Both the position numbers and the translations under genes were made by a program. Source: Lytechinus pictus (taxonomy: Eukaryota). Taken from it: a stretch of 64,000 nt of DNA. Below the pieces are notes generated by a model. That model was not told where the DNA came from. It was given only the letters and a program-made list of their open reading frames with translations, and made no database searches. Below, one piece after another: positions 2,186-25,528 of the stretch. Position 1 is the first letter of the stretch. Every line of letters starts with the position of its first letter. The stretch is from NCBI RefSeq assembly GCF_037042905.1, contig NC_087250.1:15502001-15566000 (forward strand). Reading direction: 5' to 3'.

Positions 2186-5100
2186 CCCAGGTAACAATAC
2201 AGCGTTGGACCAACGTTGGATCAACGTTGGGAAATTTTTTCCCAACGTTGCCTCAACGTTGGCAGGCAAACGTTGCATCATCGATAGAAGTGCACGCGCA
2301 TACATCGTCAGACCAACAACATTTCCAACGTCAGTTCAACGTTGTCCAGCAACAATGTTTCAACGTTGTCTGGCAACGTTGATCCAATGTTGGCTAAATA
2401 GTCAAATACAACATTGCTACAACGTTGTTAAGCAACGTTGCATCATCGATAGAAGTGCACGTCCATACATCGTCAGACCAACAACATTTCCAACGTCAGT
2501 TCAACGTTGTCCACCATCAATGCTCCAACGTTGGTATAATGTCGGCTGAGTCATCAATAACAGCGTTGCTGCAACGTTGATGGGCAACGTTGCAGCAGCG
2601 ATGGACGTGCACGTGCATACATCGTCAGTCCAACTATGTTTACAACGTTGGTTCAACGCTGTCCAGCAACAATGCTCCAACGTTGTCTGGCAACATTGCT
2701 CCAACATTGTTACAACGTTGTCACAACGTTGCTCCAACATTGCTCCAACGTTATTCCAACGTATGGCAGTAATTAACAAAACATTAATTGGTTTCAAGGT
2801 GAAGTCCACCACTACAACTCTACACTCTAATCTTTATCATCATGTCTTATCCTATCCTAAAATCCTACATCCTAATCCTATATCCTATTCCTATCATCCT
2901 ACACCTATCCACTGTATCCTATCATTGACTCCTATATATAGAGCAACTTTGCTATACTTGGCAGAATACAGTTAATATCATTTTCCACACATAACCTTGA
3001 AAATTTCACTTAGAATAATATGTTTTGATTATAAATGATATGGTAAAGGAGCCACATACTTTTCTGAAACTTTTCATGGTTGAAATATTGAATAAACATA
3101 AATACTCTAATTATTATAGCAATATTACCTAAAATTTTGGTCATTTTCTGATGTAATGAATATTCATGAGTGCATAATCATTATGTCCAGATGAGGCAGG
3201 TATGGCAGCGTTGGTCCAATGTTGGTCCAACGTTGGGTGACGTTGATCCAACGTTGGTATAATGTTGGTCCAATGTTGATGGAAAGTTGATTCAACTTTA
3301 GTCCAATCTTAGTCCAACGTTGGCGTAAACGTTGATTCAATGTTTGTCTAATATCGGTTAAATGTTGTTGTAACGTTGATTCTTTGTTGGTCTAATTTTA
3401 AACAAATCCAACGATGCGCCATCTCCATCAAACAGTTTTCAACACAGTGCCATCATCATCTGTAACCTGTTCATGATTCTATCAAAAAACATTACAACTA
3501 TTATTACAGCTATTCATTTCTTTTCATTCTTTCTGTTACAAGTCTCTTCACATAATTAAGAGGAATCAAGAGAATTACGTGTAATATTTATTGAGGCCTT
3601 TGTAGCATTCAAACCTTTTTGACATCCTCTTTTTCTCAAACAAGACTAATACCAAAAAAACATATGCATATGTAATAAGAATTAAGATGTATTACATTTT
3701 CTTGCGAGTTGCAATCTCTGTTTCTGTCTACAATTGTTTAATGACTCGGTATGCAATGCCAATTGCAACGTCAGTAATTATCACAAAAACTCACATGTGT
3801 AATTGCAGTCTCTCAGTATTTACAAAATCTAAAAAGGAGGTCGCGTAACTTGGCGTCACTCAGAGTAATGTCGCTACTGCCTACTGTAACTAAAGAGTGC
3901 CTCTTTTTGATTAAGATAGAAGTCAATTGATATCTCAATATGCATGGCCATGGCCTAGTCTCGCTCGTGCCATAACTATTAAATGATATTTCAGCGTCAA
4001 GTGTAGCATGCCTCACATAGCAACTACAGGTTTGACTGCAGTTGGAAAACACTCGGTCCAGGCTAGGCCAGGCAGGACCAAGCAGGTCAATTCAAGGCAG
4101 CGTATAATAAATAAGGCAGGAATGCCAGGTAGCAAGTCATTGGGTGATTTCAAGTATGGTGTACGGTGTTGAGAGCGTGAAAGGGCTGCTGAACTGAGCT
4201 CCAACACCAAGCGTAATATTATTTTTTATTGAAATGTATTAAAACTCTAATGATTTGCTCTCATCTTAAATGTAAAAGATAATTTTACGGAGATGGTTCG
4301 TCGTGTTCGCCCCCTGTTCGTGAGCTATAGTTCATCAACACCAACACTGAACTTTAAATCACGATTCTCCCAATCCCTGGGGGTCGGTGTTGCTGAATCG
4401 GGAAATTGCATGTAGATCATCAACACCATGCAGCCACAGTGCAGTGTTGGGTTCAGCAGATGACAATCAACACCAGCCTTCAACACAAACTGCCGGAAAT
4501 ACACCATATTTTCCGAGGCCAATCTCAACACCAGCCTGATTCAAGTACGGTGTTGTCACAACAACAACACCAGATTTCAACACTGTACTTGAAATTAATA
4601 AAATCACCCAATGACTGTTGCCTTGCCCTTGGTATCGCATACTCGTTCCCACTCACACGTATTGCGAGGTTAGTATTAGTCACTCACACAAGCTAATTAC
4701 GAGGTTAGTTAGTAGGCCTATAGTTACGTATTGTATTACCGGACACTATCATGATTCCGGACGCGCATAGTACTGCGTACGAAAACAATTTCGTACCGTA
4801 AGACTTCCGCAATTCAATTTCACAGAGCAATACATAGAACAAGATTGCTAAAACAAGGCGAAAAATCCAACTTTTACCTTATTTATCTCTAAAATGACAG
4901 AAAATGATTAAAATATCATATAAGGTAGTTTTGCATTAACAATTGATATATTTTCTGATGAAAAAATGGGCCTGATTTTGCCGAATTTCAGTCTCGTCCG
5001 CTCCTTTGATCGAATGATGAAGTGTGGTGTATTGTGGTTAATCGTCATTTTTAAAGCACTGAAATAAAGGTGTCCGGTAATACTAATAGGATACACTGCC

Positions 5101-7289
5101 ATATGTTATACTGTGCAGTGACTGGTGTTAAGTACTACTTTACTACTACTTACACGAATATAGTAGCGTCGGACTGTACGCGCACAGAAGCTGACTCCGG
5201 GATCTTTCGGAGGGGATCAATGGTTGCAGTTACCGATTATCTGCAAGTGCAAAGAAAATTCCACTGTAGATTTTAGGTCCTAAATATGCAGCTTATAAGT
5301 ACTGTTCCAGATCACTAGATATTCTGGAATTTAATTGTAATATCCAGTCCAAATTCTGCCAGATTCTTCAAGTTCAAAATTGAAGGAAGCAGACTACACA
5401 GACATGACAGAAGGAGTCCGGCGTCACGACTAATTCTGCGCATCAGAATAGTATGGTATTTTTAAATAGGCACATTTGATGCTTGTATTTCCTTCTTCAA
5501 TTTCTTCTAGTTATGTGACGTTAGGCCTATGACATATCTCGTACTTACTGTGAAAGGCCTAGCCAGCTGCAAAGGACGAGGGCGTTTCTGGAAATTCTGG
5601 TCTTGAACTACATTTTTTTCTTGTTTTTCTCTTTTAATTTCTATATTAATCGACACATTAATTTTGCATCCCCCGGTGCATGCAGCCTCTCTATTCTACC
5701 CCATCTTTATTTTTGTTTTCCCCTTAGACTTAGTTCCTCTTTCCCTTCCCATTATTTTCCTTCTCTCTCGATTTCTTTTCCCCTTATTGCTGGGGGATAC
5801 CAAGGGTGACATGGATAGACAAGCAAACTTACTTGATCGACCCCCCCCCCTGGCCTTGGCCCCATTGGAAATTATGCGAGTAGTCGTCTGTATATCATTA
5901 TCAATTCTCCAATTAACCAGTTTCTAACGTTCTCAACACTGGGTATATTATGCCGGGATATTATGTTGACTGTCAAACAAATATCCAACAAACTATAGTT
6001 TCCAACAACTCTCCAATAAATTATTCCAATTACGCTGTCCACGTTGTGCCATTGTCCGTTGTTCAACAACTCTCCATCAAACTAGTTTCCAACTTTGTCA
6101 ACGTTGTGCCATTGTCGACTGTCCAACAAATCTCCAAGAAAATAGTTTCCAACGTTGTTCCTTTGTCGGTTGTTCAGCAACTCTCCATCGAACTACTAGT
6201 TTCCGACGTAGTCAACGCTGTGCCTTTGTTGGCTGTTCAACACCTATCCAATCAAACACGCGTTTCCAACGTTGTGACGTTGTTGGCTGTCCAACAAATC
6301 TCCAACACACTAGTTTCCAATGTTGTGCCATTGTCTGTTGTTCAACAACTTTCCAACGTTGCCAACGTTGTGTCATCGTCGACTATCCTACTGATCTCCA
6401 ATCTACCAGTTTCCAACGTTGTGCCAGTGTCAGTTGTTCAACAACTTTCCATCTAACTAGTTTCTAGCTTTATCAACGTTGTGTCATTGTATACTATCTA
6501 ACTAATCTCCAATCTACCAGTTTCCAACGCTGTGCATGCCATCGTCGACTATCCAACAAATCTCCATCGAACTAGTTTCTAGCCTTTGACAACGTTGTGC
6601 CATAGTTGGTTGTTCAACAACTTTCCATCGAACTAGTTTCCAACGTTGCCAACCTTGTGTCATCGTCGACTATCCAACTAATCTCCAACCTACTAGTTTC
6701 CATCGTTGTGCCATTGTCGACTGTCCAACAACTCTCCAACTAACAAGTTTCCAACGTTGCCAACGTCGTGTCATTGTTGATTGTTCAACAACTTTCCAGC
6801 GAACTAGTTTCCAACGTTGCCAACGTTGTGCATTTGCTGGCTGTCAACAACTATCCAATCAAACGTGTCTCCAACGTTGTGACATTGTCGACTGTCCAAC
6901 AACTCTCCAACTTACTAGTCTCCAACGTTGTGCCATTGTCGACAGTCCAACAAATCTCCAACAAACTAGTTTCCAACTTTGTCAACGTTGTGCCATTGTC
7001 GGTTGTTCAACAACTTTCCAGCGAACTAGTTTCCAACGTTGTGCCATTGCTGGCTGTTCAACAGCTATCCAATCAAACGTGTTTCCAACGTTGTGACATT
7101 GTCGACTGTCCAACAACTCTCCAACTAACAAGTTTCCAACGTTGCCAACGTCGTGTCATTGTTGATTGTCCATCATCTTTCCATCAAACTAGTTTCCAAC
7201 GTCGATTCAACGTTAATCCATCAAGTTTTTCCAACGTCCAACGACTTTCAAGTTTCCAACGTGGAGCCAACGTTGGCTTGTTACCTGGG
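2186..7289. mobile_element. Non-autonomous CMC/EnSpm-like DNA transposon, family A copy 1
   Basis: TIR CCCAGGTAACAA...TTGTTACCTGGG; 2-bp TSD TG; AACGTT-rich subterminal arrays; colinear second copy at 18189-23087. Confidence 0.85.
5920..7280. repeat. AACGTT-rich subterminal tandem array (~51/60-bp units)
   Basis: Repeating unit like GTTTCCAACGTTGTGCCATTGTCGACTGTCCAACAAATCTCCAACAAACTA. Confidence 0.85.
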
Positions 7290-7387
7290 TGGTTACTTAT
7301 TCTATATCCAGAAGCAGTGGCGGGCCGTGACCCGGAGGAGACAATTGATTGGAGCGGCACTGTATTGTATGTGAACAACACTGTGCC

Positions 7388-7694
7388 CAGTCGCGTACCT
7401 GGGATTTTTCACAGGGGGGGGGGGGGCAAAACCGTCCGCCAAAAAAATTGACAAGCAAAAAAAAAAAAGAAAAAAAAAAGGTCTTCAATCACAAATGAAG
7501 GATTTCGTACCAGAAAAAAATTTGACAAGCAAAAAAAAAAAAAAAAAAAAAAAGGTCTTCAAGCTCGTCAGGGGGGGGGGGGCAATAAAGGTCTTCAAGT
7601 TCGTCAGGGGGGCAGGGATACGTCCTTTGCATGGGTTGTGGCTCGTCGGGGGGGGCAGACTGCCCCCTCTGCCCCCCCCGTAGGTACGCTAGTG
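7388..7694. mobile_element. hAT-like MITE
   Basis: CAGTCGCGTACCT...AGGTACGCTAGTG ends; perfect 8-bp TSD ACTGTGCC. Confidence 0.75.
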
Positions 7695-9331
7695 ACTGTG
7701 CCCCTCCAATGATTTGTCTCCTCTGGGTCAAGGTCCAAGTAACTGCAGATATGTACCCACTTTTCGTGTCGTACGTTGATAACGTCCTCTACCTTCCACT
7801 TGTAAGGTGGCACTTGAAGTCGACTTTTTCTTCTTCAGTATGTCACATGACTGAATCACGTGAACATATTTTCACGATTTCAAGGGTGTCGTTCGAATGA
7901 TCATTGCACCCTCGACACAAATAATTCAACTGGGTTCTCGAGAGCACAACTGATCGGTAAGTTTGCATAATTATGATTTTTCCCATTGATTTGTAATTCA
8001 ATAAATTAAATGTTATGGATATTTATTTTTAAGGTTAAAATTATATATGCGAAATGAAACGAAATATTCGTATTATACCATTATTCATTGCTATTACGAT
8101 TAGCATTATTTTGTTAATACTATCATTTTTATTATCATCAACATTATTATTAGTAATATAATGATGGTGCTTATTATTATCATTGTCATTTACCTACTGC
8201 AGTTTTCCATGAATGACCCAAAGAGCTATGTTACTGAGAAATATTTTTTGGGAAGTAATACCTTACAATCCTAGAAATATGGATTGGAAAATAAAATGTT
8301 CTAACGGGGAAGTTCACCGTCAGGATATAGGATGGTTTGAATAAAAGCAGAGGAAATAGAAAAAAATATTGCCGAAAGTTTTATACAAACAGGTCAAAGA
8401 ACAACGGAGTAGTATATGAATTTTAAAAGTTTTTATTTTGTGACGTCACCGACGAGCAGCTCCTAATGCCATGAATGCAGTTTGATGTAAACTCCCCCAA
8501 AATGGTGAAAATGATAGTTATTTTTTTTGGTATCATCAGACACACCATTTCGTAACCCGCTCTATTTGAAAATATTATTCTTGTTCCGATGTTCATTTTT
8601 TACAACCGGGGAGGTTCCCAGCCAGCATGTTCCGGCGGCCCGCAGGTACTTTTGCGGTCACCGGTGGCGACAGGTTGCAGCTGTTTGCCGTTCCTGTGCC
8701 GCTGCAGCCACTGATGGCCACCGACATTGTTGCGCCTGGTGTACGAAGCAAACTGGAACAAGCGGGCCACCTCCGGGCCGGCGTTTGTAATACGATTGTG
8801 TGGATTTTACCTGGATCGTACGGCGGCCCGCAGGTACATTTACGGTGGCTACAGGCGGCAGCTGTTTGCCGCTGCAGCCACTGATGGCCCACCGACATTG
8901 TTGCGCCTGGTGTACGAAGCAAACTGGAACAAGCGGGTCACTTCCGAGCCGGCGTTTAAATTCTAGGTGGCCCATCAGCGGCCTAAAAGCGGCAATCTCT
9001 GCGGCTGGTTGCGTGGAAGTGGCAGGTAAGTTGGTAGCAGTGGTCTGCTGATAGCAATGAGGTGGCATCAAGGTGGCTAGAAAGTGGCAAATGTGATATT
9101 TAGTAGAGCGAATATTGTGTGGATTTTGCATGGATCGTACATGATTTTGTTTTCGTTAGTTTTTCCTTATATCAAATGATTCCGTCAAAATATTATGTTG
9201 AGATGAATGAACTAATGGTAAAGGTACAACAGTTGCAACTCCTTATGAAACAGGCCCCATGCAGATATAATAATAATATTCCGCATTTATATAGCGCTTA
9301 ACACATCGGAACGACGTCTCTGAGCGCTTTA

Positions 9332-9739
9332 AGGCGACCGCACACCTTACGATTGGTCTGCGACCCGATTTCAGAATAAAATGTGATGCTAATATTGAGA
9401 CTTGGAATATCTTACTGTGTAATGTTCTAAATCATCGTACGAATACCTATATTCAAATCTGTGACTATGCTATCATCCTTCTTACAATAAAAGCGAATTT
9501 AATATTATCTAGTCGTAATGACGTCATAGCAGTCGTACGATTGGCTACGATTTGAAACTAATTTGGCTTTTACTCCAAAATAAAGGCTTGCAATCTTTCA
9601 AAATGGTTATTTTAGTATTCTTTCAATTAATTTCAACCTCAAATGAAATTATATGTTCCATTCACATTTTCAGAAAATGAGCAAAATGCGATTTGTTCCA
9701 AAATCGGATCGCGAACAGTCGTAAGGTGTGCGGTGGCCT
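9332..9739. mobile_element. PIF/Harbinger-like MITE
   Basis: TIR AGGC(G/C)ACCGCACACCTTACGA; 3-bp TSD TTA. Confidence 0.75.
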
Positions 9740-10640
9740 TTACATATATAATATTACCCCGGTCATCGGATCCTTGCGTACCCGCATACAACGTAGGCAC
9801 CTTCTCCACTCCCTGGGGAGCATTCCAACAAGAGTTCCAAGACTCAATTGCTAAGCATACTACACAGGCTTTCGCATCCTACCGGGTACCCATTTAACAA
9901 CTGGGTGGAGAGTGGCAAATTGTGGATTGACGCCTTGCCAAAGGACGCTAGGCCATGGTGGGATTCGAACACACAACCCTCTGATTACAAGGCGAGAGTC
10001 AGAACCGCTACACCACGGCGCACAGTGGGCCGGGGCGAAACAAAAGTGCGCCAAAAGTAATTTTGGGCAATTTTAGATTTTAAATTTTTTGTCATGCCCA
10101 GCTGAAAGACAACACTTTGAAGAATACTTCAGCAAAATATTTCATTCGGGAATTTGCATAAAGGTTGTAAATTTCCTACCTCAAATCGTAAAATGTGACA
10201 TTTTGCGAAATGCCGCGTATATGACAACTTAGTTGAAAAACAAGCCATTTCACAGGAGGTTTTTCATGCAGGAATCTGAAATGGCACCCACATAATCCTG
10301 ATATATTCTTTTTTCGTGTGAAATGGTTCAAAGTAGATAAAATACACATTTCAGGAGGTTTATATGATAATTATTCCTCGAAATAGGCTGATAATCCATT
10401 TTTTTTGCATTTACATTAGAAACGTTTAAATTTCCGTGAATTTCCGTTTAAATTCTATCATCATCATTTTGCCAGATGTCTAAGCTTTAAGTCGATACCA
10501 AATTTAGCTGCCCGTTTTCATGTTAGAGCCGGTTTTACTTGACACAACACCCCCAAAACCTGTTAAAAAAACTGTCATGTTTATACCTCGCAGTCATCCC
10601 AGCGCATCGTGTACATGGTGTGGGGTGTACATTGCCGTTC

Positions 10641-11614
10641 ATTCCCGACCTTTCGTTGGAGAACGCGAACGCTTATTTGCGACGGTAGTTTATTTTGGAA
10701 GAGACTTTTGGGCCCGTCGTCATGGTCGTAAAACTCTGTCCTGCAATGCAAATTGTGTGACATGCGATTTTTTTTCGTTTAGCATCTGGAACGGAAACAT
10801 CCAATTTGCATTTCGTGTGCAAAACTCTGGTTGCTACTATGAAAACAGCGATATATCCGATTTAGGACGACTTTCCAAAGCCACATTTGGTTCCTCCCAG
10901 AGCTCAAGAGGCCGCCCGGGGGCCCACTTCCATTGAAGAGTGGATACCAGGCGCGACCACGCGTAAAAAGGGAAAGAGTGGGCAAGTGCGTAACGTATAG
11001 GCCTATGTAACGTGTCAAAAACGATGTTTAAAATACTGAAAAGGAGGATATGTTTTCAATACTTGTAGGGTTTCACAAGCTCAATACTTGTTAAGAGATG
11101 CATTTTCATAATCTGGAAAAGACTTGCTTCCCTTGTTTAGGGTGCTTTTCGAAACCCCATGGTCGTGCCTGGTATCCACTCATCAATGGAAGTGGTCCCC
11201 CCGGGAATTTGAATCTAATCTCCCATTTCTGGGGAAAGTAAAACATAATGCCCATTACATTGTGTGCTAGAGGCATACCGTTTGTGTAGAAGGAGTAAAC
11301 ACAAGAAAAAAACCCGCAAATACGTCTGAATTTCAGTCGATTTTGAGGGGTTTTTTTTCTTTTGTTTACTCCTACTCAAACGATATGCCTCTAGCACACA
11401 ATGTATGGGCCTCTTGCATATGCTGTGTACATATCAACGCATGCGAAATGGTTTCGGCTGGAGAGGTGATCTGACCCATGGAATCAATTGCCAGTGATCC
11501 ACCAATAATCCACATTAAATGCAATACCGATTCGATGGACTGTAATGATCTATATCTAAGCCTTAATTCAGTAACTTTTTCCTCACTCAATATGTACTCG
11601 ATGTGTTTGAAAAA
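10641..11614 (+). repeat. Unclassified ~1-kb dispersed repeat
   Basis: Colinear with 26562-27350; a short diverged match lies near 18004-18100. Confidence 0.75.
10915..11205. mobile_element. MITE with CCCGGG termini
   Basis: CCCGGGGGCCCACTTCCATTGAAGAGTGGATACCAGGC...GCCTGGTATCCACTCATCAATGGAAGTGGTCCCCCCGGG; also present inside the 26.6-27.3 kb copy. Confidence 0.65.
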
Positions 11615-12296
11615 CAAAATAAAGGTTGGTAACGCATATAAGGGCTACCCGCTCCTCTTTCAGAGATAAAAGTTACTTGTAGAATAATTTCAGCCCAAAA
11701 CCCTCCTCATAGTAAAACATTCGTGGTGTTATATACTCTGTCTACACCGCTCGATAAAGCATGGTTAATATTTTTTTCCGATTTTTAAGTATTTTTTTAA
11801 ATGTAATGATCATTTTGATGCCATACAATTATTTTCAAGATCTCATACACACTTGTTAGGCATGTGAGAAGCATAAATCAACATTCACTCTGGTCAATCT
11901 TAAAGTAACACATAACACAAAGTTTATATTCTACACATTGTTTAGCGTAATTTGTCTTTTCACAGATAGGTTTTAAGTAGCCAATCAAAATTTGGCATCA
12001 AAGTGACGTCATATCGGCTTTAAATTATGTTCAGTCGATTCTACGCCCAAAATTACCCTTAATCAACATGTTAAAATAAAAATATAACACGAAATGTAAT
12101 TTTGGCGCACTTTCAACTCATTCTGGCCCACTGTGCGGCGCTTCCATCTAAAGGGGGAAAAAGAAAATAGTGACAGGAATGAAATAGGGGAAGGAAAGGA
12201 AAGATATAATTTATATTCTTTTTGTGCACTAAGACCTTAAAACTGTTTTTGCCTGCTTTATTTGGTGCCGAGATCTACATGCGATATAATCATAAG

Positions 12297-12448
12297 CATA
12301 GGCGGCGGAAGCGGGGGGAAGGGGGGACCTTAAGGTAGACCCCCTAAAATTGTTGTGGGACCCCCCTAAATTTTGGTTGATAACTTTTTTTTTTTGCTTG
12401 TCAAATTTTTTTGGTGGTCCCTCCTAATTTTTTTTCCCGCCGCCAATG
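12297..12448. mobile_element. hAT-like MITE
   Basis: CATAGGCGGCGG...CCGCCGCCAATG; 8-bp TSD ATCATAAG/ATTATAAG. Confidence 0.7.
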
Positions 12449-12579
12449 ATTATAAGAAACCAAAGTTATGTAAAAGTTTGGCGCCGAGTCCTCACGTCAC
12501 GCCTTCCGATTACGGCATGGAACGGTGCTCAGTTCGCGAATCCATAAAATAATAAAGCGCACATTTTAATCGAACGTTG

Positions 12580-12660
12580 ATTGGCTAGAAGTTGTTCGAG
12601 CTAAGTTTTGATTGGTGGATTTCTGGGCGTTACCGGTGATGCGGATTCCTCATTTGCTTA
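12580..12660 (+). promoter_or_regulatory. H2B promoter relic: two inverted CCAAT boxes and a degenerate octamer
   Basis: ATTGG at 12580 and 12611; CTCATTTGCTTAC at 12649-12661 (one mismatch to octamer ATTTGCAT), just upstream of the H2B ATG. Confidence 0.6.
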
Positions 12661-12727
12661 CATCATCTGTTATCGCGTCGATCATCGGTACTTTGCCATT
12701 ATCATTCTAGCACCAGCAGCAATCAAT

Positions 12728-13166
12728 ATGCCGTCGTCACAGACAGGTCCTACCAAGCGTAATCAAACCAAGCGAGGCCCCAGAAGGGGGGCAAGGGAGC
12801 CAAGTGGGGAGGAAAGGCCAGCAAGCGTCGTGACGTAGCTATGAGAGTCGACGTCGATGTGAAAAACTATAGAATCTAAATCTACAAAGTGTTGAAGCAA
12901 GTTCATCCTGACACTGGCATTAAATTTCAAGAAGGGCTAGAGTAAGTCCATCATGAACACGCACATGACCAGCTTTGTTAACAGTGTGTTCAAGCGTGTC
13001 GCTGGTGAAGCCTCACGTCTATACCACACACAACAGCCGCAAGAGCACCGTTTCAATCCCCGAAGTACTGCTGCGATCTGCTTCTCCCTGGTGAGCTTGC
13101 TAAGCGCGCCGTTAATTTCGGAAGGTACCAAGGCTGCATGTCACCAAATATCCCACATCCTGATAG
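12728..13166 (+). pseudogene. H2B: Sperm-type histone H2B pseudogene
   Basis: Fragments across frames: MPSSQTGPTKRNQTKRGP (like SPTKR repeats), IYKVLKQVHPDTGI, SFVNSVFKRVAGEASRL, LLPGELAK, SEGTKA, TKYPTS; several frameshifts and stops. Confidence 0.92.
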
Positions 13167-13190
13167 ATGGAATTCCATCTCGGAGACAAC

Positions 13191-13225
13191 GGCTCTTTTC
13201 AGAGCCACTCAATTTTTAAGAAAGA
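13191..13225 (+). terminator. Histone 3' stem-loop and downstream element
   Basis: GGCTCTTTTCAGAGCC (13191-13206) followed by AAGAAAGA (13218-13225). Confidence 0.9.
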
Positions 13226-13781
13226 AACAGTTGATTTGGCTCTCCCAAATATCACATTTACCACCTTCTAGCCACTTTTGTGCCACCTCATTGCCACTAG
13301 CAGGCCGCTGCTACCAACTTACCTGCCACTTCCATGCCACCAGCTAGTCGCGGGTGGCCCTCCTCCAATGCCACCAGCATGCAACTTCCATGTTACCTAA
13401 CAACTACTCCTTTTTAGCCAACAAGCAGCCGCAGGTGGCCCACATCTATACCGCTTGTAAACTGCCAAGTGGCCCACCAGCATAAGCATCTGCAAGCCCG
13501 GCTGCGGCCCACCAGAAGCCCTCTCACGTGGGCCGCAGAAACAGCCACCTTTAGGACGCTGGTGGGCCACCTGGAATGGCTAGCTGGGTTTTCTTTCCAG
13601 TCATTGGTATGCCATTCGAAATAATGTAATAAGTAGGCCTAATATCCTGCCTTATGTTCATTTGATTTTTTCTTAACAACCGGGGTCGTCTCCTATCCAG
13701 TTAAACATGCTAATCAAATCCTTATCTCTTTTAAAAACTCACCTGTTTCATATAGTAAACGGTAAACGCATGATTTGTACA

Positions 13782-15105
13782 CAGTGGCGTAGCTAGGATT
13801 TTTTTCCTGGGGGGGCACTGGGGGGTCCTTGCTTTTTCAGGGGGGGGCACCATTTTTTCGGTGTGTGTGTGTATGTGTCACAAGGGCGGATCCGACTTTC
13901 GCCAATAGGGGACGGTGCCCGAAATTATCTTCACCTATATTTTCCCCAATCAGTCACTTCTTAGTTTTATTCTTATAAAACAACATTAACATGAAATAAG
14001 CCTTATAAAAAGTGCGAGCGCGAAGCGCGAGCGATTTTTTTTTTTTACTTTTATGTATTTTGTCCTGAAAATTTAATATTCTGGGCAATGTTATGTGTGA
14101 TCCTGAACAAGATTCGTATGTAACTAGATGGTTACTGCGAACGCCAAGCGCGAGCAGAAATTTTTATTAACTGTTCTAGCATTATCGAAAAGGGACCTGT
14201 TAAGGACTGCTTACAGTTACCCACGAAGACGGTATATATTTCAAAAATGCGAGCGCGAAGCACTTTTTGTATTAATAAATGGGATAGGTATGTAACTAAA
14301 CAATTGATGCGAGCGCGAAGCGCCAGAGGTTAGAAAATTGAGATTTCAGACCTAAAAGCGGGACACTCTATTCATATTTTGTAAATCATAAATAGGATAT
14401 AGTTAATTGGGTATCATTAATAATGCGATCATGAAGCGTGAGCAGACAAGTATTGATATTCTGACGTGAAACTGGATAATTTAAGTACATTTTAAATAAA
14501 GAACATGTAGGCCATCGCGCATGTTTTAGATTTAGACCTAGAATCTGGGCATTCTGAATACATTTGTTTAATGAAACATAATGGAATACACCTAGACAAT
14601 ATGAAATTGGCAAATCAAACAATGTGACCACGCAGCGTGAGCTTAAAATGCTGATATGTAGACCATAAAAACAAACATTTTACAGAGCACTTAAATTTGT
14701 AAATGAAAAAAAAACAATGAAAGCTCGATGTCCGAGCTAAAATATGTTTTGTATATAGACTTCAAAACTTGCTCCATATCAGCCTATTGAGCAAGATATG
14801 AATCTCATCGAACAGGCAATTCTGGCGCGAAGCGCAAGCAAAAATTTTATATGGTAACATGAAAGATTTGTTTTTTTGCAAGTCTTCCCCTCACATTATT
14901 TCATTCACTCGTCTTCCTCCTCTTATCTTCCTCTTCCTTTTTGTTCTTCTGTCTTTCTTCTTTTTTCTTTTTTTTCTTTTCTTCTTTCTCCCTTTTTTTT
15001 GTTGCTCTGCCAATTTTTTCAGGGGGGGCACCTGGGGGGGCACACCAAATCTCAGGGGGGGGGGGGCACGTGCCCCCCATGCCCCCCCCCGTAGCTACGC
15101 CATTG
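13782..15105. mobile_element. hAT-like non-autonomous element with GCGAGCGCGAAGCGCGAGC motifs
   Basis: CAGTGGCGTAGCTA...TAGCTACGCCATTG; 8-bp TSD TTTGTACA. Confidence 0.8.
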
Positions 15106-15612
15106 TTTGTACAACGCTTCCGTCCGGCTGTTATTACTCAAGCATATCTTTTGCTTAAATCGTTTGCCGCTGCATTTTCTTATGCTTACATGTTGCATTT
15201 ATGTCTAAATGTTTATATTGCTTCTGTGTTCTAGTTGTGTCACATTGCAATGTATTTTATTGCCATATTACGTATTACGATTATGTATTGTAAATTAATT
15301 TTTACTTTACAATAAATGCAAAAACTCAAGTGGGGTGTGTGTGTGGGGGGTGCGGTAGGATCGTTACCGGTTAAGGATCGGTCCCACTGCACTTGCAGAT
15401 GCAAAAAGGATGTAAAACGTAAAAAATTTGTTCACAATTTGTCAATTGATGATAAGTGAGTCCCGACTGACTGTATGTGTGTGTCTGTGGGTAGGGTGAG
15501 TGTGGATGGTGTGTATATATGTGAGTCTGAGTAATGGTGCTTGGTTAGCTCGTCACCATTTTTGTTGTCTTTATAGAACTATATAGGTGGTAAACGATCC
15601 GTGGGCTTAATT

Positions 15613-16000
15613 ATGGATTCCCCATTACCATCAGCAACAACCTCCTCCTCCTGGACGAATGGTTCTATTCCACTCTACGCAGTCACACTGGCCATCCTTC
15701 TGCTGTTCTTCTTGAAACGAACTTCCGGCAAAACGAAAGGGCGCCCTCTTCCTGGTCCAAGAGGTCTTCCAATCATAGGAAGCACTCTCGAGTTTCTCTT
15801 CTCTAAACTGGACCCGAGGGAGATCCACGAGAAATGGGCGAAGGAATACGGCGAAATATTCATGTACAAGCTGTTGGGATCTCGTTTTGTTTTCCTGAAC
15901 AACCCTGATATCATCCGCGAGGTTTATGCAGCTGGGAATCATGTCCACGACCGAATCCCTATCCTTCTCTGCAACAAAGCCCTTGGAAGATCCAACACAG
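15613..16000 (+). CDS. Cytochrome P450 (clan 2-like) exon 1
   Basis: ATG 15613; N-terminal membrane anchor; proline-rich LPGPRGLPIIG; phase-1 donor CAG|GTAATG. Confidence 0.9.
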
Positions 16001-16615
16001 GTAATGGTGTAGTTACATACATGGCATTTTCTCCTGTGATAGTTGCTCCCACTGAAAATAGACACCTCAAGCCACGCATAATCCAGAGATACAAAACCAA
16101 CCCTCACATGACTCACCCTTTGGTAATCTTAATCCTCACATAATTCTGAACCAAAAACCCTCTCACATCAACTCTAACCCTTCCCTTATACATACATAGA
16201 TATATGCGGAGGAGCATTTTTCATGTGAGAAAATGCGGTGTCACCGCGCAATCACAGATGCAAACCGTCTGCGAATCAGTCATTGGTATGCCATTCGAAA
16301 TAACGTATGCTGTGTGTTCAGGTTCACAAAATTCTTAGGGTTCAGTATATATATATATATATAATAGCCACTTTCCGTTTGGAGGAACGAAATGTGATGA
16401 CTGACGTGAACAGCATGCGTTGCCAACGCATCACGGTCCCCACTTGTGCTTGGTGATCTCACATTCGCACTAGATTGTGGTTTGTAGTGTAGATTTAGTT
16501 TTCAGGATATGCCATATCAAGGTTTGTCCTTTGGACCTTGGTATTGTTGGATACAACACCGAAGGAAAAAACCCGCCATAACTCTTACCCTATAACACGA
16601 ACTCTATTTTTTCAG

Positions 16616-17133
16616 ATCTTGGTATAGTTGGATGCAAAGCCGATCTCGACTGGAAGAATCTGCGAAAGTTCGTCCAACACGTCCTGCGGAACTTCAAGAG
16701 CTACTACTCAAGCTTTGAACCTGTTGTGGCATCTCAGGCAACGCGCCTCGTTGATGAATTCTCCAGTCACAAAGGCAAGCCCTTTGAACCGCAGGGAAAC
16801 ATCTACGCCACTGTCGCTAACATCACCACCACTATTGTAATGGGGAAGACATACGAGTACGAAGATCAAGAGTTTGTGGCTCTGGTAAAGACTTCACAGG
16901 ACATCTTTGACTATCTTGGCGCACTCACAAACAACTACCATATCCCGTTGGTTGCTTCGGTTCCCGTTAAATCAAATAGGAATGGCTACCGGTCTATTTC
17001 TAAATTGTTCCGCTTCATAAGGGACACGGTGGATGAAACCCGTAGGTCTTTGGACATCAGGAAGAAGACGACAGAAAGCGAACAGAACATCGTACAGTCC
17101 TTCCTAGAGCAGCAGAAACTCAGGGAAAAGGAG
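16616..17133 (+). CDS. Cytochrome P450 exon 2
   Basis: TTTCAG acceptor; C-helix WKNLR; open frame; phase-0 donor GAG|GTGAGT. Confidence 0.9.
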
Positions 17134-18188
17134 GTGAGTCCGAAAACCCGAAAAAAACAATGAGCGTGTTTTAGAAGACACTCATTTTCTCGTCTTTGGT
17201 TGAGCATTATGACAACACACGAAAAATCTTCCCAACTGGTCGGAAGAACTGTTTCTCACGGTGTATTCAAAGCGTGTTCACATAGTGGACTGAGTAAAGT
17301 TGTGATTTACATTTACAGGTATACGTAGAGTGTGCTTACATAGTGGACTATGTGAAAAAAAAAGATTCACACTGTGAAAAAAGCTCAAATTTGAGAGTGT
17401 GAAGATGAGATCACACTCTGTACCACTGTACACTTTGAACACACTGTAATTGGACACGGTTCTTTCCAGCATGAGTAGGGCCGAGCGAGATGAAAATAAT
17501 GAACACAAATTATATACGGCCACCAGAAGAGGCGATTGGAACTATGGGTCCCGAGGCAACCCCAGAATGCGACTATTTTCTTGAGGGGATCAGACCCAAA
17601 GGAAAATGGTCACATTCGCCTCACTAAGCGGGCCATAGTTTCGCCACACCTCCGATCGAAGGCCGTATATATTTGGTTTATATCTGTCATCAGTATTAAA
17701 CGAAAAATGTGAAATATAATCGAATGAATGACAATAAGGAATCGGTCTTCCATTGAGATATATATGTAGGCGATTGATCACAATGTGTCTACGCGCACTG
17801 TTTGCCATGCGTTTGATTCAACCCCCGCCCATCAAGCCATATACTTTTGTACTATTTACGACTCGCGGTACGTACCGTTCCCGTCTTATGACATCAGATG
17901 TCAGGATTTGCGGCACATTTGCCGAAATTGGTGACGTTGGTTGGAACTATCTTTGGCCACATGAATGTGTTTAGACCAAACACCTATTCAGAATGATATA
18001 CCGGACCTTTCGTTGCGCCACGCGAACGGACCTTTACGACTGTAGTTGCTCTTGAAGAGACATTTGGGCCCGTCGTAAAAGACTGTCCTGCAAATGCAAG
18101 GACGACAGGGCCGGTATTCAAACGTACATGACGGTGTATTTGGCTAAGTGTATTACTCAGTATAGAATTTCCTCCTCAGGAGAGCTTA

Positions 18189-21100
18189 CCCAGGTAACAA
18201 TACAGCGTTGGACAAACGTTGGGAATTTTTTCCCAACGTTGCCTCAACGTTGGTAAGCAACGTTGCATCATCGATAGAAGTGCACGTCCATGCATCGTCA
18301 GACCAACAACATTTCCAACGTCAGTTCAACGTTGTCCACCATCAATGCTCCAACGTTGGTATAATGTCGGCTGAGTCATTAATAACAGCGTTGCTGCAAC
18401 GTTGATGGGCGACGTTGAAGCAGCGATGGACGTGCACATACATACATCGTCAGTCCAACTATGTTTACAACGTTGGTTCAACGCTGTCCAGCAACAATGC
18501 TCCAACGTTGTCTGGCAACATTGCTCCAACATTGTTATAAAGTTGTCACAACGTTGCTCCAACATTGCTCCAACGTATGGCAGTAATTAACAAAACATTA
18601 ATTGGTTTCAAGGTGAAGTCCACCATTACAACTCTACACTCTAATCTTTATCATCATGTCTTATCCTATCCTAAAATCCTACATCCTAATCCTTCATCCT
18701 ATTCCTATCATCCTACACCTATCCACTGAATCCTGTCAGTGACTCCTATATATAGAGCAACTTTGCTATACTTGGCAGAATACAGTTAATATCATTTTCC
18801 ACACTTAACCTTGAAAATTTCACTTAGAGTAATATGTTTTGATTATAAATGATATGGTAATGGAGCCACATACTTTTCTGAAACTTTTCATGGTGGAAAT
18901 ATTGAATAAACGTAAATACTCTCATTATTATAGCAATATTACCTAAAATTTTGGTCATTTACTGATGTAATGAATATTCATGAGTGCTTAATCATTATGT
19001 CCAGATGAGGCAGGTATGGCAGCGTTTGTCCAATGTTGGTCCAACGTTGGGTGACGTTAATCCAACGTTGGTCTAATGTTGGTCCAATGTTGATGGAAAG
19101 TTGATTCAACGTTAGTCCAATGTTAGTCCAACGCTGGCGTAATGTTCCAATGTTTCAATGTTTGTCTAATATCGGTTAAATGTTGTTGTAACGTTGATTC
19201 TTTGTTGGTCTAATTTTAAACAAATCCAACGATGCGCCATCTCCATCAAACAGTTTTCAACACTGTGCCATCATCATCTGTAACCTGTTCATGATTCTGT
19301 CAAAAAAACATTACAACTATTATTACAACTATTCATTTCTTTTCGTTCTTTCTGTTACAAGTCTCTTCACATAATTAAGAGGAATCAAGAGAATTACATG
19401 TGATATTTATCGAGGCCTTTGTAGCATTCAAACTTTTTTGACATCCTCTTTTTCTCAAACAAGACTAATACCCCAAAAACATATGCATATGTATTAAGAA
19501 TTAAGATGTATTACATTTTCTTGCGAGTTGCAATCTCTGTTTCTGTCTACAATTGTTTAATGACTCGGTATGCAATGCCAATTGCAACGTCAGTAATCAT
19601 CACAAAAACTCACATGTGTAATTGCAGTCTCTCAGTATTAACAAAATCTAAAAAGGAGGTCGCGTAACTTGGCCTCACTCAGAGTAACGTAGCTACTGCC
19701 TACTGTAACTAAAGAGCGCCTCTTTTTTTATTAAGATAGAGGTCAACTGATATCTCAATATGCATGGCCATGGCCTAGTCTCGCTCCTGCCATAACTCTT
19801 AAATGATATTTCAGCGTCAAATGTAAGCATGCCTCACGTAGCAACTACAGGTTTGACTGCAGTTGGAAAACACTCGGTCCTGGCTAGGCCATGCAGGACC
19901 GACCAGGTCAATTCCAGGCAGCGTATAATAAATAAGGCAGGAATGCCAGGTAGCAAGTCATTGGGTGATTTCAAGTACGGTGTACGGTGTTGAGAGCGCG
20001 AAAGGGCCGCTGCTGAACTGAGCTCCAACACCAAGCGTAAAATTATTTTTCATTGAAATGTATTAAAACTCTAATGATTTGCTCTTATCTTAAATGTAAA
20101 AGATAATTTTACGGAGATGGTTCGTCGTGTTCGCCCCCTGTTCGTGAGCTACAGTTCATCAACACCAACACTGAACTTTAATTTAAAAAAATCACGATTC
20201 TCCCAATCCCTGGGGGTCGGTGTTGCTGAATGAGGAAATTGCATGTAGATCATCAACACCATGCAGCCGCAGTGCAGTGTTCAACACAAACTGCCGGAAA
20301 TACATCATATTTTCCGAGGTCAATCTCAACACCAGCCTGATTCAAGTAGGTGTTGTCACAACACCAACACCAGATTTCAACACTGTACTTGAAATTATTG
20401 AAATCTCCCAATGACTGTTGCCTTGCCCTTGGTATCGCATACTCGTTCCCACTCACGTATTGCGAGGTTAGTATTAGTCACTCACACAAGTACGAGGTCG
20501 AGGTTAGTTATATGTTTACTGTGCAGTGACTGTTGTTAAGTAATTACACGAAAATACTAGCGTCGGACTGTACGCGCACATAAGCTGACTCCGGGATCTT
20601 TCGGAGGGGATCAACGGTTGCAGTTACCGATTATCTGCAAGTGCAAAGAAAATTCCACTGTAGATTGTAGGTCCTAAATATGCAACTTAGAGGTACTGTT
20701 CCAGATCACTAGATATTCAGGAATTTAATTGTCTATATCCAGTCCAAATTCTGCCAGATTCTTCAAGTTCAAAATTGAAGGAAGCAGACTACACAGAAGA
20801 AGGAGTCTGACGTCGACGCGTCGCGACTAATTCTGCGCATCAGAATAGTATGGTATTCTTAAATAGGCACATTTGATGCTTGTATTTCCTTCTTCAATTT
20901 CTTCTAGCTATGTGACGGTAGGCCTATATATATCTCGTACTTGCTGTGAGAGGCCTAGCCAGCTGCAAAGGACGATGGCGTTTCTGGAAATTCTGGTCTT
21001 GAACTACATTTGTTTTCTTGTTTTTCTCCTTTATTTTCTATATTAATCGACATTTGCATCCCCCGGTGCATGCAGCCTCTCTATTGATCGACCAAATCTT

Positions 21101-23087
21101 TATTTATGTTTTCCCCTTAGTTTTAGTTCCTCTTTCCCTTCCCATTATTTTCCTTCTCTCTCCATTTCTTTTCCCCTTATTGCTGGGGGATACCAAGGGT
21201 GACATGGATAGAAGAGCAAACTTACTTGATCGACCCCTTGGCCCCATTGGAAATTATGCGAGTAGTCGTCTATATACCAATTCTCCAATGAGCCAGTTTC
21301 TAACATTCTCAACACTGTGTATATTATGCCGGGATATTATGTTGACTGTCAAACAAATATCCAACAAACTATAGTTTCCAACATTGTGTCAATGTTAACT
21401 GTCAACAACTCTCCAATAAACTATTCCAATTCCGCTGTCCACTTTGTGCCATTGTCCGTTGTTCAACAACTCTCCATCAAACTAGTTTCCAACTTTGTCA
21501 ACGTTGTGCCATTGTCGACTGTCCAACAAATCTCCAAGAAAATAGTTTCCAACGTTGTTCCGTTATCGGTTGTTCAGCAACTCTCCATCGAACTAGTTTC
21601 CGACGTAGTCAACGCTGTGCCTTTGTTGGCTGTTCAACAACTATCCAATCAAACACGTTTCCAACGTTGTGACATTGTTGGCTGTCCAACAAATCTCCAA
21701 CACACTAGTTTCGAATGTTGTGCCATTGTCTGTTGTTCAACAACTTTCCAACGTTGCCAACGTTGTGTCATCGTCGACTATCCTACTGATCTCCAACCTA
21801 CCAGTTTCCAACGTTGTGCCAGTGTCAGTTGTTCAACAACTTTCCATCTAACTAGTTTCAAGCTTTATCAACGTTGTGTCATTGTCTACTATCTAACTAA
21901 TCTCCAATCTACCAGTTTCCAACGTTGTGCCATCGTCGACTATCCAACAAATCTCCATCGAACTAGTTTCTAGCTTTGAGTGTGTATGTGTATATTTGAG
22001 TTTTATCAGACGTGTATCAATCAGATATGATTATTTACGTCTGGGACCGACCTTTAACGTCACCATCCGAAAGACGTGACCAGGGCTCGAACCTCGAACC
22101 TCTGCATCAATTTGTAACTTCCCCACGTAGCTTGGATTACAGGCGCACGCCACAACGCCCAGTCAACGTTGTGCCAACAACCAACTATGGCACAACGTTG
22201 TGCCATAGTTGGTTGTTCAACAACTTTCCATCGGACTAGTTTCCAACGTTGCCAACCTTGTGTTATCGTCGACTATCCAACTAATCTCCAACCTACTACT
22301 AGTTCCCAACGTTTTGCCATTGTCGACCGTCCAACAAATCTCCAACAAACTAGTTTCCAACTTTGTCAACGTTGTCTCATTGTCGGTTGATCAACAACTT
22401 TCCATCGAACTGGTTTCTAACGTTGCCAACGTTGTGTTATTGTTGGCTGTTCAGCAACTATCCAATTAAACATGTTTCATCGTTATGCCATTGTCAACTG
22501 TCCAACAACTCTCCAACTAACAAGTTTCCAACGTTGCCAACGTCGTGTCATTGTTGATTGTTCAACAACTTTCCAGCGAACTAGTTTCCAACGTTGCCAA
22601 CGTTGCAAACGTTGTGCCTTTGCTGGCTGTTCAACAACTATCCAATCAAACGTGTCTCCAACGTTGTGACATTGTCGACTGTCCAACAACTCTTCAACTT
22701 TCTTGTTTCCAACGTTGTGCCATTGTCGACCGTCCAACAAATCTCCAACAAACTAGTTTCCATCTTTGTCAACGTTGTGCCATTGTCGGTTGTTCAACAA
22801 CTTTCCAGCGAACTAGTTTCCAACGTTGCCAACGTTGTACCTTTGCTGGCTGTTCAACAACTATCCAATCAAACGTGTTTCCAACGTTATGACATTGTCG
22901 ACTCTGTCCAACAACTCTCCAACTAACAAGTTTCCAACGTTGCCAACGTCATGTCATTGTTGATTGTCCATCATCTTTCCATCAAACTAGTTTCCAACGT
23001 CGATTCAACGTTAATCCATCAGGTTTTTCCAACGTCCAACGACTTTCAAGTTTTCAACGTAGAGCCAACGTTGGCTTGTTACCTGGG
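18189..23087. mobile_element. Non-autonomous CMC/EnSpm-like DNA transposon, family A copy 2 (P450 intron 2)
   Basis: Same TIR CCCAGGTAACAA...TTGTTACCTGGG; 2-bp TSD TA; colinear with 2186-7289 with indels. Confidence 0.85.
21979..22162 (-). mobile_element. Candidate 7SL(SRP RNA)-derived SINE
   Basis: Absent from copy 1 of the host element. Minus strand: CTGGGCGTTGTGGCGTGCGCCTGTAATCCAAGCTACGTGGGG head, GGTTCGAGCCC B box, CA-rich tail. Confidence 0.7.
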
Positions 23088-23258
23088 TAAGGTACACCTT
23101 GTGGTTTCCGTAGGTCTGAGTCATAGAGAGGTGTATAGAATTGAAGTGGAGAGGGCAAGAAGGTGGTAGATTGTAAAGCAGAGTTTCTTTCGGCAATGGG
23201 TATAGTCCTTATAGAGGACGATAGTCCTTAAAAAGAGTGAAAATCAGCAGAGCTTTAA

Positions 23259-23862
23259 AGGACAAGTCCACCCTAACAAAAATTTGATTTGAATAAAAAG
23301 AGAAAAATCCAACAAGCACAACACTGAAAATTTCATCAAAATCGGATGTAAAATAAGAAAGTTATGACATTTTAAAGTTTCGGTTAATTTCACAAAACAG
23401 TAATATGCACATCCTGGTCGGTATGCAAATGAGGAGACTGATGATGTCACCCACTCACTATTTCTTTTGTATTTTGTTATATGAAATGTGAAATATTCTA
23501 ATTTTCTCCTCATTGCCAAGTGAAATAACGATTAATTTTTCCCTGTACATGTGGAATTAGCATTGTTTAATACTATATGGTTTAGTCAAGTTGGTCCTTA
23601 TTGTCAAATCTGTAAAAAGTTAAATATTGTAAAATTCGAACAATAAAAAGCAAAAGAAATAGTGAGTGAAGGACATCATCGTCTGTTTCATTTGCATGTC
23701 ACTGAGTTGTGCATATCACTTTTTTGTGAAAAAATAAGCGAAACTTTAAAATGGCATAACTTTCTTATTTTACATCCGATTATGATGAAATTTTTAGCGT
23801 TCTGCTATTTTGATTTTTCTCTATCTATTCAAAACAATATTCTTCTGGGGTGAACTTGACCT
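23259..23862. mobile_element. Kolobok-like MITE
   Basis: TTAA|AGGACAAGTCCACCC...GGGTGAACTTGACCT|TTAA; long imperfect TIRs. Confidence 0.75.
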
Positions 23863-24052
23863 TTAAGGTTGAAAGTTGAGAAACTAGTTGGAGAGATGAG
23901 GGAAGGTTGCAGTAACTTGAGTTGGCGAATGTATAGCAGAGCAGGAAAAAAGACTCGAGAGAAGAAATTCTTATAGTCTCTTTCAGTTAGAACTATATGT
24001 CTAACTCTCTTTAGTTGATTCTGAAAGTCTTTGAATGATTTCCCCCAAACAG

Positions 24053-24521
24053 GGCAAGAATCACGTCTTCACGGATCCTAACCTCTTTCAGACTGTATTC
24101 GATCTCTGCTTCGCGGGATTCGACACCGTGAGCTGCAGCATATGTTGGATCATTCGACTCCTCTCCCACCACCGGGACGTCCAGGAGAAGCTCCAAGCCG
24201 AACTCGACGACGTCGTAGGACGTGATCGCATGCCACTCCTGAGCGACGGCGACGACCTCCCTTTCGTGATGGCAACCATAGCTGAGTGTTATCGAATCTC
24301 CCGGATGATTTCCACCCAGCTACCCCATGTCGTTGACAGCGACTGCGAGGTCAGAGGATACCACGTTCCAAAAGGGAGCTTCGTGTCAGTAAACGCCTCG
24401 TGGCTGGCGTGCAATGAGGCGACCTGGGAAGACCCGGAAGTGTTCCGTCCTGAGCGATTCATCGACGACACAGGATCATTTGACGTGAACTTGGAAAACA
24501 AGATGATGAAATTTGGTGTCG
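24053..24521 (+). CDS. Cytochrome P450 exon 3
   Basis: I-helix FAGFDTV, K-helix ECYR, PERF, start of heme loop FGVG; donor G|GTGAGT phase 1. Confidence 0.93.
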
Positions 24522-24837
24522 GTGAGTGGCCAAATGTATTACTAAATATTGTTTTAAACGAATGGTAGCTACGATTAAGGCCGGTGCCATGTTCAGATGG
24601 GGAACTAACTTTGGTGGTGGTGGTGGAAGTGAGGGGGGGGGGGGTAAATAATTTTTAACTGAACATGCGCGAGACAATTTACACCTTAATCATCATCATA
24701 CAAGCTTTGAAATCTATGTCAAACCAACTCGCTTTCAGTAAAGTAAATTAAGGCTTGATTTTTTTATTAATAATTTATTTGCAGTTTCGAATCGTTCATA
24801 TAGCTTCGAATCCGTCAATAAACCTCACTCTAGTTAA

Positions 24838-25423: not shown

Positions 25424-25528
25424 TTAATAAGTGAATTTTAATTCAAATTCCATATATATGTTCGTCATGCAGTGATACGCCATTACAAATTGAAAAGTTT
25501 GTTCTCCGATGTCACATTGTTATCACAG

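What the first reader, a model, noticed from the sequence alone, without database searches (positions are those of the whole stretch)
8617..13588. Pack-type CACTA/EnSpm-like element carrying a whole sperm histone H2B gene unit
Seen: between CCCAGC TIRs with a TT TSD lies a decayed H2B with SPTKR-like N-terminal repeats. It retains upstream CCAAT boxes and an octamer-like box, the 3' stem-loop, and the AAGAAAGA element, which abuts the right subterminal repeats. Known: the downstream element is cut off mature histone mRNA, so this is a DNA-level copy and not a retrocopy. Gene capture by CACTA elements is best known in plants. Inference: an animal transposon has captured a testis-specific histone gene, perhaps gaining a germline promoter.
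Basis: partly seen in the sequence, partly recalled or inferred. Interest (0 to 1): 0.72.

Follow-up and report, generated by a model that had tools for sequence, protein, structure and literature searches.

The report
Dead sperm histone gene inside transposon
A small cut-and-paste transposon in a sea-urchin genome encloses a whole but ruined copy of the sperm histone H2B gene, promoter and 3' end signals included, likely picked up once by DNA repair and, as far as could be seen, not spread further.

Summary
CCCAG…CTGGG ends (8617, 13588) with a TT duplication and GGTGGC-rich inverted arms enclose a full-length sperm H2B.1 pseudogene (9 frameshifts, 1 internal stop) with two reversed CCAAT boxes, an octamer-like box, the stem-loop and AAGAAAGA. 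Removing the block and one TT puts the flanks in register with a nearby duplicate (9 of 12 bases), so this is one insertion, not two elements round a resident gene. About 3.0 of 5.0 kb are later nested repeats. In two DNA runs (organism A, perhaps not this species) depth over most of H2B is explained by one contig each, 11% diverged, stopping at the arm boundary: likely the parent gene. No second H2B-bearing copy was seen; one other arm copy has a different interior. This genome is not held, so its copy number is untested. Best reading: a one-off Pack-TIR capture, now dead. A gained germline promoter has no support. Pack-TIRs are known in animals and histone capture in fungi; an En/Spm-type one is not in the published animal list. 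The scan's sequence look-ups found no look-alike.

The parts
8615..8616 (.). left target-site duplication TT
   Evidence: register test
8617..9140 (+). left arm: CCCAGC terminus, GGTGGC/GCCACC subterminal repeats, internal duplications (8633-8786 = 8821-8957; 8795-8821 = 9114-9140), inner inverted repeat 9004-9112
   Evidence: low-copy matches in runs X5, X9, X21
9141..9266 (.). unassigned interior (element interior or low-copy repeat)
   Evidence: bin 9032-9214 is about 7-10 times deeper than the H2B contig in X2 and X5
9267..10020 (-). nested high-copy SINE-like repeat, body and tail; its last bases resume at 12141-12146
   Evidence: loose ends before 9267 and behind 10021 in X2, X5, X9; SINE label from the tRNA-like head is my inference
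9332..9739 (.). MITE inside the SINE, TTA duplication (PIF/Harbinger-like; label recalled)
   Evidence: joint 9326-9738 skipping 411 nt in all 4 runs
10021..12135 (.). Transib-like non-autonomous element, CACAGTG ends, 5-bp CGGCG duplication (10016-10020, 12136-12140); holds further repeats (10641-11615, related to 26561-27352)
   Evidence: Transib1_SP has the same CGGCG duplication (PMC1131882); joints skipping its middle in X5
12147..12296 (.). unassigned interior
12297..12448 (.). short high-copy TIR element with an 8-bp duplication matching at 7 of 8 (hAT-like; label recalled)
   Evidence: depth
12457..12551 (.). unassigned; may be further H2B upstream DNA, but it lies outside the stretch aligned to the likely parent contigs
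12552..12727 (+). H2B promoter and leader: reversed CCAAT boxes 12580 and 12611, octamer-like ATTTGCTT 12652
   Evidence: covered by the likely parent contigs from 12552 in X2 and X5
12728..13166 (+). sperm histone H2B.1 pseudogene, full length, 9 frameshifts, internal stop at 12877
13186..13231 (+). histone 3' stem-loop (13191-13206) and downstream element AAGAAAGA (13218-13225)
   Evidence: Rfam RF00032
13236..13243 (.). right capture junction: up to 8 nt shared between the end of parent homology and the start of the arm (possible microhomology; contig letters not shown)
13236..13588 (+). right arm with subterminal repeats and CTGGG terminus
   Evidence: other copies end at this terminus in X5 and X9
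13589..13590 (.). right target-site duplication TT
13655..13701 (+). nearby duplicate of the insertion site, used as an in-window empty site

Best explanation
A CCC-ended DNA transposon without a transposase, likely of the En/Spm (CACTA) kind, sits here as one 4,972-bp insertion and encloses a full-length, ruined copy of the sperm H2B.1 gene unit, which was likely copied in once from the real gene by template-switch repair and likely never spread. Shown: the ends, the duplication, the single-block insertion, the gene unit, its decay and the nested repeats. Inferred: a break inside the element (or a gap left by attempted excision or a stalled fork) was filled from the H2B.1 locus, taking about 176 nt of promoter, the coding region and about 70 nt of 3' flank, and rejoining at the inner edge of the right arm, perhaps through a few shared bases. 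Capture happened at about the time the element was active. Whether it happened at this site or the hybrid jumped here once is open. The copy then decayed neutrally and collected a SINE, MITEs and a Transib-like element.
For: One block: with the element and exactly 2 nt removed, the joined flanks match a duplicate about 70 nt downstream at 9 of 12 bases right of the junction, against 2-6 of 12 for the 6 other offsets; 38 of 5000 random right parts reach the score; the left flank's match to that duplicate is reached by 0 of 5000 random stretches; binomial p 0.00075. No extra terminus inside (best 12-14 of 20, same as background). Control: both copies of another CCCAG family in the window have 2-bp duplications (TG, TA). 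Mobile end: an X5 contig covers 165 nt of the bin, exactly up to 13588, and X9 record 24 ends at 13591 with 56 nt of other flank. DNA-level copy: one contig each in X2 and X5 aligns over 12552-13243, promoter to downstream element, at 11% substitutions and does not go on into the arm. Single copy in those runs: depth over 12509-12874 is 22.7 and 29.8 in X2 and 64.8 and 85.3 in X5, against 23.3 and 30.5, 66.7 and 87.2 expected from that one contig. X9 record 24 has 311 nt of inner sequence that does not align, and X9 depth over 12692-13057 is 0. Similar ages: H2B 11% from parent, arm 9% from another copy, inner arms 13.8% from each other. Prior: 4 of 281 unique animal Pack-TIRs (1.4%) are multicopy and 67.6% show microhomology (PMC8277862 sections 7, 8).
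Against: The window's genome is not held, and no listed run holds more than 0.24 of the stretch's words. The right flank is almost uncovered in X2 and X5, so organism A may be another species or lack this allele; no true empty allele and no other copy from this genome was seen. The lay showed 24 pieces and left 76,689 unshown, and it filters human-like records, which can include histone DNA, so absence is weak. The parent identity of the two contigs is inferred from length, gap counts and depth; their letters were not shown. The left capture junction is buried under nested repeats. The duplicate site was noticed by eye before it was tested. H2B is at least as decayed as the arms, which fits capture before arrival here as well as capture on the spot. 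No second H2B locus lies in the window (tblastn), whereas most single-copy Pack-TIRs lie within 15 kb of their parent (56.9%).
Confidence: 0.68

Rival explanations
1. A transposing Pack-CACTA family: the hybrid formed elsewhere (fork switch, or two neighbouring insertions fused as in Arabidopsis Pack-CACTA) and was moved in trans to several sites, this being one old copy.
For: Both termini and the duplication are intact. H2B decay is not less than arm decay. The parent is not within the window. Earlier AI notes report transposase-coding CACTA-type elements in this genome (unchecked).
Against: Depth over H2B in 2 of 2 whole-genome-like runs equals one contig; the arm copy in X9 has another interior; the scan's index had no look-alike for three stretches; the likely parent contig runs 613 nt past 13243 in X5 without matching the arm.
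Confidence: 0.2
2. Two separate elements, each having lost its inner end, flank a resident H2B pseudogene; TT on both sides is chance.
For: A 2-bp match has about 7% chance. The outer arms align poorly with each other beyond the first 25 nt.
Against: The flanks rejoin in register with the nearby duplicate only when 2 nt are removed. No inner terminus remains. Parent homology ends at the arm edge in both runs.
Confidence: 0.05
3. The H2B copy entered through RNA (retrocopy or transduction of a read-through transcript) or on another mobile element that landed inside the transposon.
For: Retro-elements are active here (nested SINE). Earlier AI notes mention Penelope-like elements with histone-like end signals in this genome (unchecked). 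Three short interior stretches are unassigned.
Against: 176 nt of upstream DNA and the downstream element are both present and align to the likely parent. No poly(A) follows the gene. That the downstream element is cut from mature histone mRNA is established knowledge (recalled).
Confidence: 0.04
4. The captured promoter is functional and kept: it gives the element, or the P450 gene 2.0 kb beyond the right end, testis expression.
For: Both CCAAT boxes and 7 of 8 octamer bases survive; the promoter points toward the P450 start at about 15613 on the same strand.
Against: No transposase frame to drive (0 Pfam matches in the 5 frames of 100 aa or more). The histone 3' end signals lie between promoter and P450. 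Survival of three short motifs is expected at about 10% decay.
Confidence: 0.05

Closest known systems
Animal Pack-TIRs (Tan et al. 2021, PMC8277862; read abstract, sections 7, 8, 9, 14, passages, supplement searches)
   Same: Host DNA between the two ends of one non-autonomous TIR element, parent elsewhere, apparently single copy, possible microhomology. Ssk-FB4 carries upstream DNA plus almost a whole gene.
   Different: 87.2% of the 370 are hAT or TcMariner; Supplementary Data 1 has no hit for Spm, CACTA, EnSpm or CMC, and its 5 S. purpuratus cases are piggyBac. This copy is older (11%) than their 90% identity cut-off allows, and dead, unlike Ssk-FB4.
Plant Pack-CACTA (Catoni et al. 2019, PMC6379663; passages read)
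   Same: Non-autonomous CACTA-type ends, arms that differ between the two sides, captured chromosomal DNA.
   Different: Plant elements have CACTA termini and 3-bp duplications, are multicopy and shown to move; here CCC ends, 2-bp duplication, no shown movement of the loaded form.
Animal CACTA/TRC elements such as SmTRC1 (DeMarco et al. 2006, PMC1636069; passages read)
   Same: CCC termini and 2-bp duplications; the Aedes element starts CCCAG; related transposases are reported in S. purpuratus.
   Different: No transposase here, so the assignment rests on ends alone.
Histone H3 captured by hAT transposons in Dothideomycete fungi (Dhillon et al. 2019, PMC6710886, abstract only; PMC3538342, search listing only)
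   Same: A histone gene captured by a cut-and-paste transposon and inactivated.
   Different: Fungal cases were amplified to tens or hundreds of copies by hAT elements; here one copy, an animal, a germline variant, with the replication-dependent 3' end signals.
Sea-urchin histone orphons and the TU element found inside an H2B orphon (recalled, not read)
   Same: Dispersed, decayed DNA-level histone gene copies tied to transposons in sea urchins.
   Different: There the transposon sits inside the histone pseudogene; here the histone gene sits inside the transposon.

Membership tests
Animal En/Spm (CACTA, CMC) elements | CCC…GGG terminal inverted repeats | tested here: met
   CCCAGC at both ends, 9 of first 12 bases match; feature from PMC1636069
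Animal En/Spm (CACTA, CMC) elements | 2-bp target-site duplication | tested here: met
   TT/TT; register test favours 2 nt of 7 offsets; 2 of 2 copies of another CCCAG family also have 2-bp duplications
Animal En/Spm (CACTA, CMC) elements | subterminal short repeats in both orientations (feature recalled) | tested here: met
   GGTGGC/GCCACC 14 times in the arms, 9 in the rest of the window
Animal En/Spm (CACTA, CMC) elements | same ends as a transposase-coding member of the family (Repbase rule for non-autonomous elements, PMC4455052) | not testable with these tools
   no genome held; the element itself has no Pfam match in 5 frames of 100 aa or more
Pack-TIR | non-TE host sequence between two ends of the same element | tested here: met
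Pack-TIR | parental copy elsewhere, not flanked by the element | tested here: met
   contigs in X2 and X5 align over 12552-13243 and run on 89 and 613 nt without matching the arm; seen in organism A, letters not shown
Pack-TIR | not a retrocopy | tested here: met
   promoter and downstream element present and aligned to the likely parent
Multicopy (transposed) Pack-TIR | two or more loaded copies with different duplications | tested here: inconclusive
   none seen in X2, X5, X9; own genome not searchable
Single-copy gap-fill Pack-TIR | the same element without cargo at the orthologous site in an outgroup; microhomology at junctions | tested here: inconclusive
   orthologous flank not covered in organism A; up to 8 nt overlap at the right junction, letters not shown
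Sea-urchin sperm histone H2B.1 | long basic N-terminal tail with SPxK/R repeats on an H2B fold, with stem-loop 3' end | tested here: met
   met as a pseudogene only

The most novel reading that the evidence does not exclude
An animal Pack-CACTA family moved a complete sperm H2B transcription unit to several sites, showing directly one way in which dispersed histone genes (orphons and solitary variants) arise and dropping a testis promoter beside host genes such as the neighbouring P450.
Probability: 0.15. Interest if true: 0.55.

Novelty: new member of a known kind. Interest (0 to 1): 0.3.

Why it matters
It is a clean animal example of whole-gene capture by a CACTA-type element, a superfamily absent from the published list of 370 animal Pack-TIRs, and the cargo is a complete replication-type histone unit with promoter and 3' processing signals. 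It shows one route by which solitary histone pseudogenes can arise. The copy is dead and, on present evidence, single, so it says little about function. It would matter more if other loaded copies, or an active promoter, were found.

Tried and rejected
Own genome: not held, so no direct copy search. Scan index by place and sequence: 0 look-alikes for 7117-15088, 12450-13588 and 8617-9260. Metagenome scan with a 25-nt arm motif: 0 matches. Metagenome scan with P0001: 79 loci, all ordinary H2Bs; 0 of 79 match either arm, and matches to the H2B region cover only 12847-13234. Sequencing runs: no RNA holder listed. The one RNA run laid (X21, about 6 in 100 read, tissue unknown) gave depth 0 to 1.5 over H2B, which cannot be told from reads of true H2B genes, so it is not used either way. 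The lay was swamped by the nested repeats; no joint between the flanks or between the arms was among the 15 joints shown (781 not shown). A degenerate terminal pattern matched only the left end. Pfam gave no match for the 53-aa H2B piece or for one P450 exon frame, so the scan is not sensitive on short pieces. Literature searches with no paper; searches whose listings showed nothing on a histone gene inside a sea-urchin transposon: 20 of 21 listed; 3; 5. The 1980s papers on orphons, TU elements and the sperm H2B promoter were not found and are recalled. Rejected: two elements round a resident gene; retrocopy; germline-promoter gain.
Full report
Setting. The DNA is from a sea urchin, probably Lytechinus: the best protein match is sperm H2B.1, identical in L. 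pictus and L. variegatus. No whole genome is held. The element lies about 2.0 kb upstream of a cytochrome P450 start on the same strand.

Observation. The ends are as described: CCCAGCCAGC at 8617, the inverse of CCCAGCTAGC ending at 13588, TT on both sides. The arms are 57% GC and rich in GGTGGC/GCCACC (14 against 9 in the rest of the window). Their inner parts are inverted repeats, 94 of 109 identical. The H2B copy is full length (12728-13166) with 9 frame-changing indels, an internal stop and a 12-nt insertion, 107 identities in 149 columns to P0001. Its tail scores 109-126 against three sperm H2B.1 proteins and 21-49 against 19 ordinary H2Bs from the first 20 of 79 fetched loci. Two reversed CCAAT boxes 31 nt apart, ATTTGCTT, the stem-loop and AAGAAAGA are present, and Rfam scores the 3' end above its cut-off. 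That these boxes are the known sperm H2B promoter elements is recalled; my search for a paper found none.

About 3,040 of 4,972 nt are later insertions: a SINE-like repeat, a MITE with a TTA duplication inside it, a Transib-like element with CACAGTG ends and a CGGCG duplication (the same duplication as Transib1_SP, PMC1131882, passages), and a 152-nt element with an 8-bp duplication. All are very deep in the laid runs, with loose ends or joints at their borders. Without them the element is about 1.9 kb: two arms, the 0.7-kb H2B unit and three unassigned stretches of 95-150 nt.

One insertion or two? A roughly 47-nt duplicate of the insertion site lies at 13655-13701. I noticed it by eye and then tested it. 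The left flank matches it better than any of 5000 random stretches. With the element and exactly 2 nt removed, the next 12 bases of the right flank match it at 9 places, against 2-6 for the other six offsets, and 38 of 5000 random right parts reach the same score (binomial p 0.00075). No further terminus lies inside. Both copies of another CCCAG-ended family in the window have 2-bp duplications.

Parent and copy number. I laid 4 of 24 listed runs on 8300-13780 at 80% likeness. In the DNA runs X2 and X5 (organism A) one contig each aligns over 12552-13243, from above the CCAAT boxes to just past the downstream element, with 73 and 71 substitutions in 650 aligned sites. They run on 89 and 613 nt without matching the arm. 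Their gap counts (60, 69) fit the lesions seen in the protein alignment, so they are likely the working gene; the letters were not shown. Depth over 12509-12874 equals that one contig in both runs, so no second H2B-bearing copy shows at this likeness. Homology ends inside the first 8 nt of the arm, which may be microhomology or chance extension. The arms are low copy: right arm 3 contigs in X2 and 1 each in X5 and X9 at 13487-13490; left arm 0, 2 and 1. The X5 contig ends exactly at 13588 by depth arithmetic. X9 record 24 (organism B) matches 13281-13591 at 9% substitutions, with 56 nt of other flank outside and 311 nt of unaligned sequence inside; the orientation of record coordinates I read from records 7 and 14. 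X9 has no depth over 12692-13057. So the end is a mobile terminus, and the one copy that could be followed inward lacks H2B there.

Limits. No run holds more than 0.24 of the words, and the right flank is almost uncovered in organism A, so A may be a sister species or lack the allele. The tool shows few of its pieces and joints and filters human-like records, histones among them. Copy number in the window's own genome is untested.

Age. H2B is 11% from the parent, part of it on the parent's side. The arm is 9% from another copy and the inner arms 13.8% from each other. These overlap, so capture and insertion are of about the same age. CpG-rich arginine codons may decay faster (inference). The data do not separate capture on the spot from one jump of a ready-made hybrid.

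Mechanism. Most likely a break in or at the element was filled by template switching to the H2B.1 locus, then the copy decayed. In Tan et al. (PMC8277862; abstract, sections 7, 8, 9, 14 and supplement searches) 1.4% of animal Pack-TIRs are multicopy and 67.6% show microhomology. Against capture on the spot, most of their single-copy cases lie within 15 kb of the parent, and no second H2B lies in this window. The fusion of two neighbouring insertions described for plant Pack-CACTA (PMC6379663, passages) is not excluded, but the likely parent contigs carry no arm.

Promoter gain. Nothing supports it. The element has no transposase frame, the promoter points through the histone end signals, and three short motifs are expected to survive 10% decay.

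Comparison and novelty. CCC ends with 2-bp duplications mark animal CACTA elements (PMC1636069, passages); a later paper says most CMCT lineages have CA…TG ends and 2-5-bp duplications (PMC12730594, passages), so the label rests on ends alone. Pack-TIRs are known in animals; the 5 sea-urchin cases listed are piggyBac and no En/Spm entry was found in that list. Histone H3 capture by hAT elements is known in fungi (PMC6710886, abstract). My searches listed no report of a histone gene inside an animal CACTA element, but the library lacks most older papers. Verdict: real, a new member of a known kind, dead and probably single; interest 0.3.

Noticed in passing
window 2186-7289 and 18189-23087: Two copies of another CCCAG-ended non-autonomous element with long CAACGTTG-type subterminal arrays, duplications TG and TA, 3.7% apart over 2.3 kb; the second lies inside the P450 gene span.
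   Followed up: partly
window 15577-24568: Cytochrome P450 gene, exon frames at 15577-16143, 16582-17163 and 24035-24568; Pfam p450 for the first.
   Followed up: partly
window 13598-13628 and 16277-16307: A 31-nt piece of the right flank recurs at 97% in the first P450 intron; may be a templated insertion.
   Followed up: no
window 10021-12135: Transib-like element inserted about 6-11 nt from the head end of the SINE, with the same CGGCG duplication as Transib1_SP.
   Followed up: partly
window 10641-11615 and 26561-27352: A composite of nested repeats found twice, about 7% apart; each copy lacks pieces the other has.
   Followed up: no
window 46200-53100: Tandemly duplicated exons of fibronectin type III-like look (label by eye), in units of about 1.1-1.7 kb.
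   Followed up: no
window 23255-25427 and 33857-38863: Two further long inverted-repeat elements; the first surrounds a P450 exon frame at 24035-24568.
   Followed up: no
window 61595-63256 and 57194-57514: Reverse-transcriptase-like frames of non-LTR retroelements, by eye.
   Followed up: no
window 12552-13243, runs X2 and X5: The two likely parent contigs differ by 9 nt in length, which matches the extra KGG in P0001 against P0002: possibly a tail-length polymorphism of sperm H2B.1.
   Followed up: no
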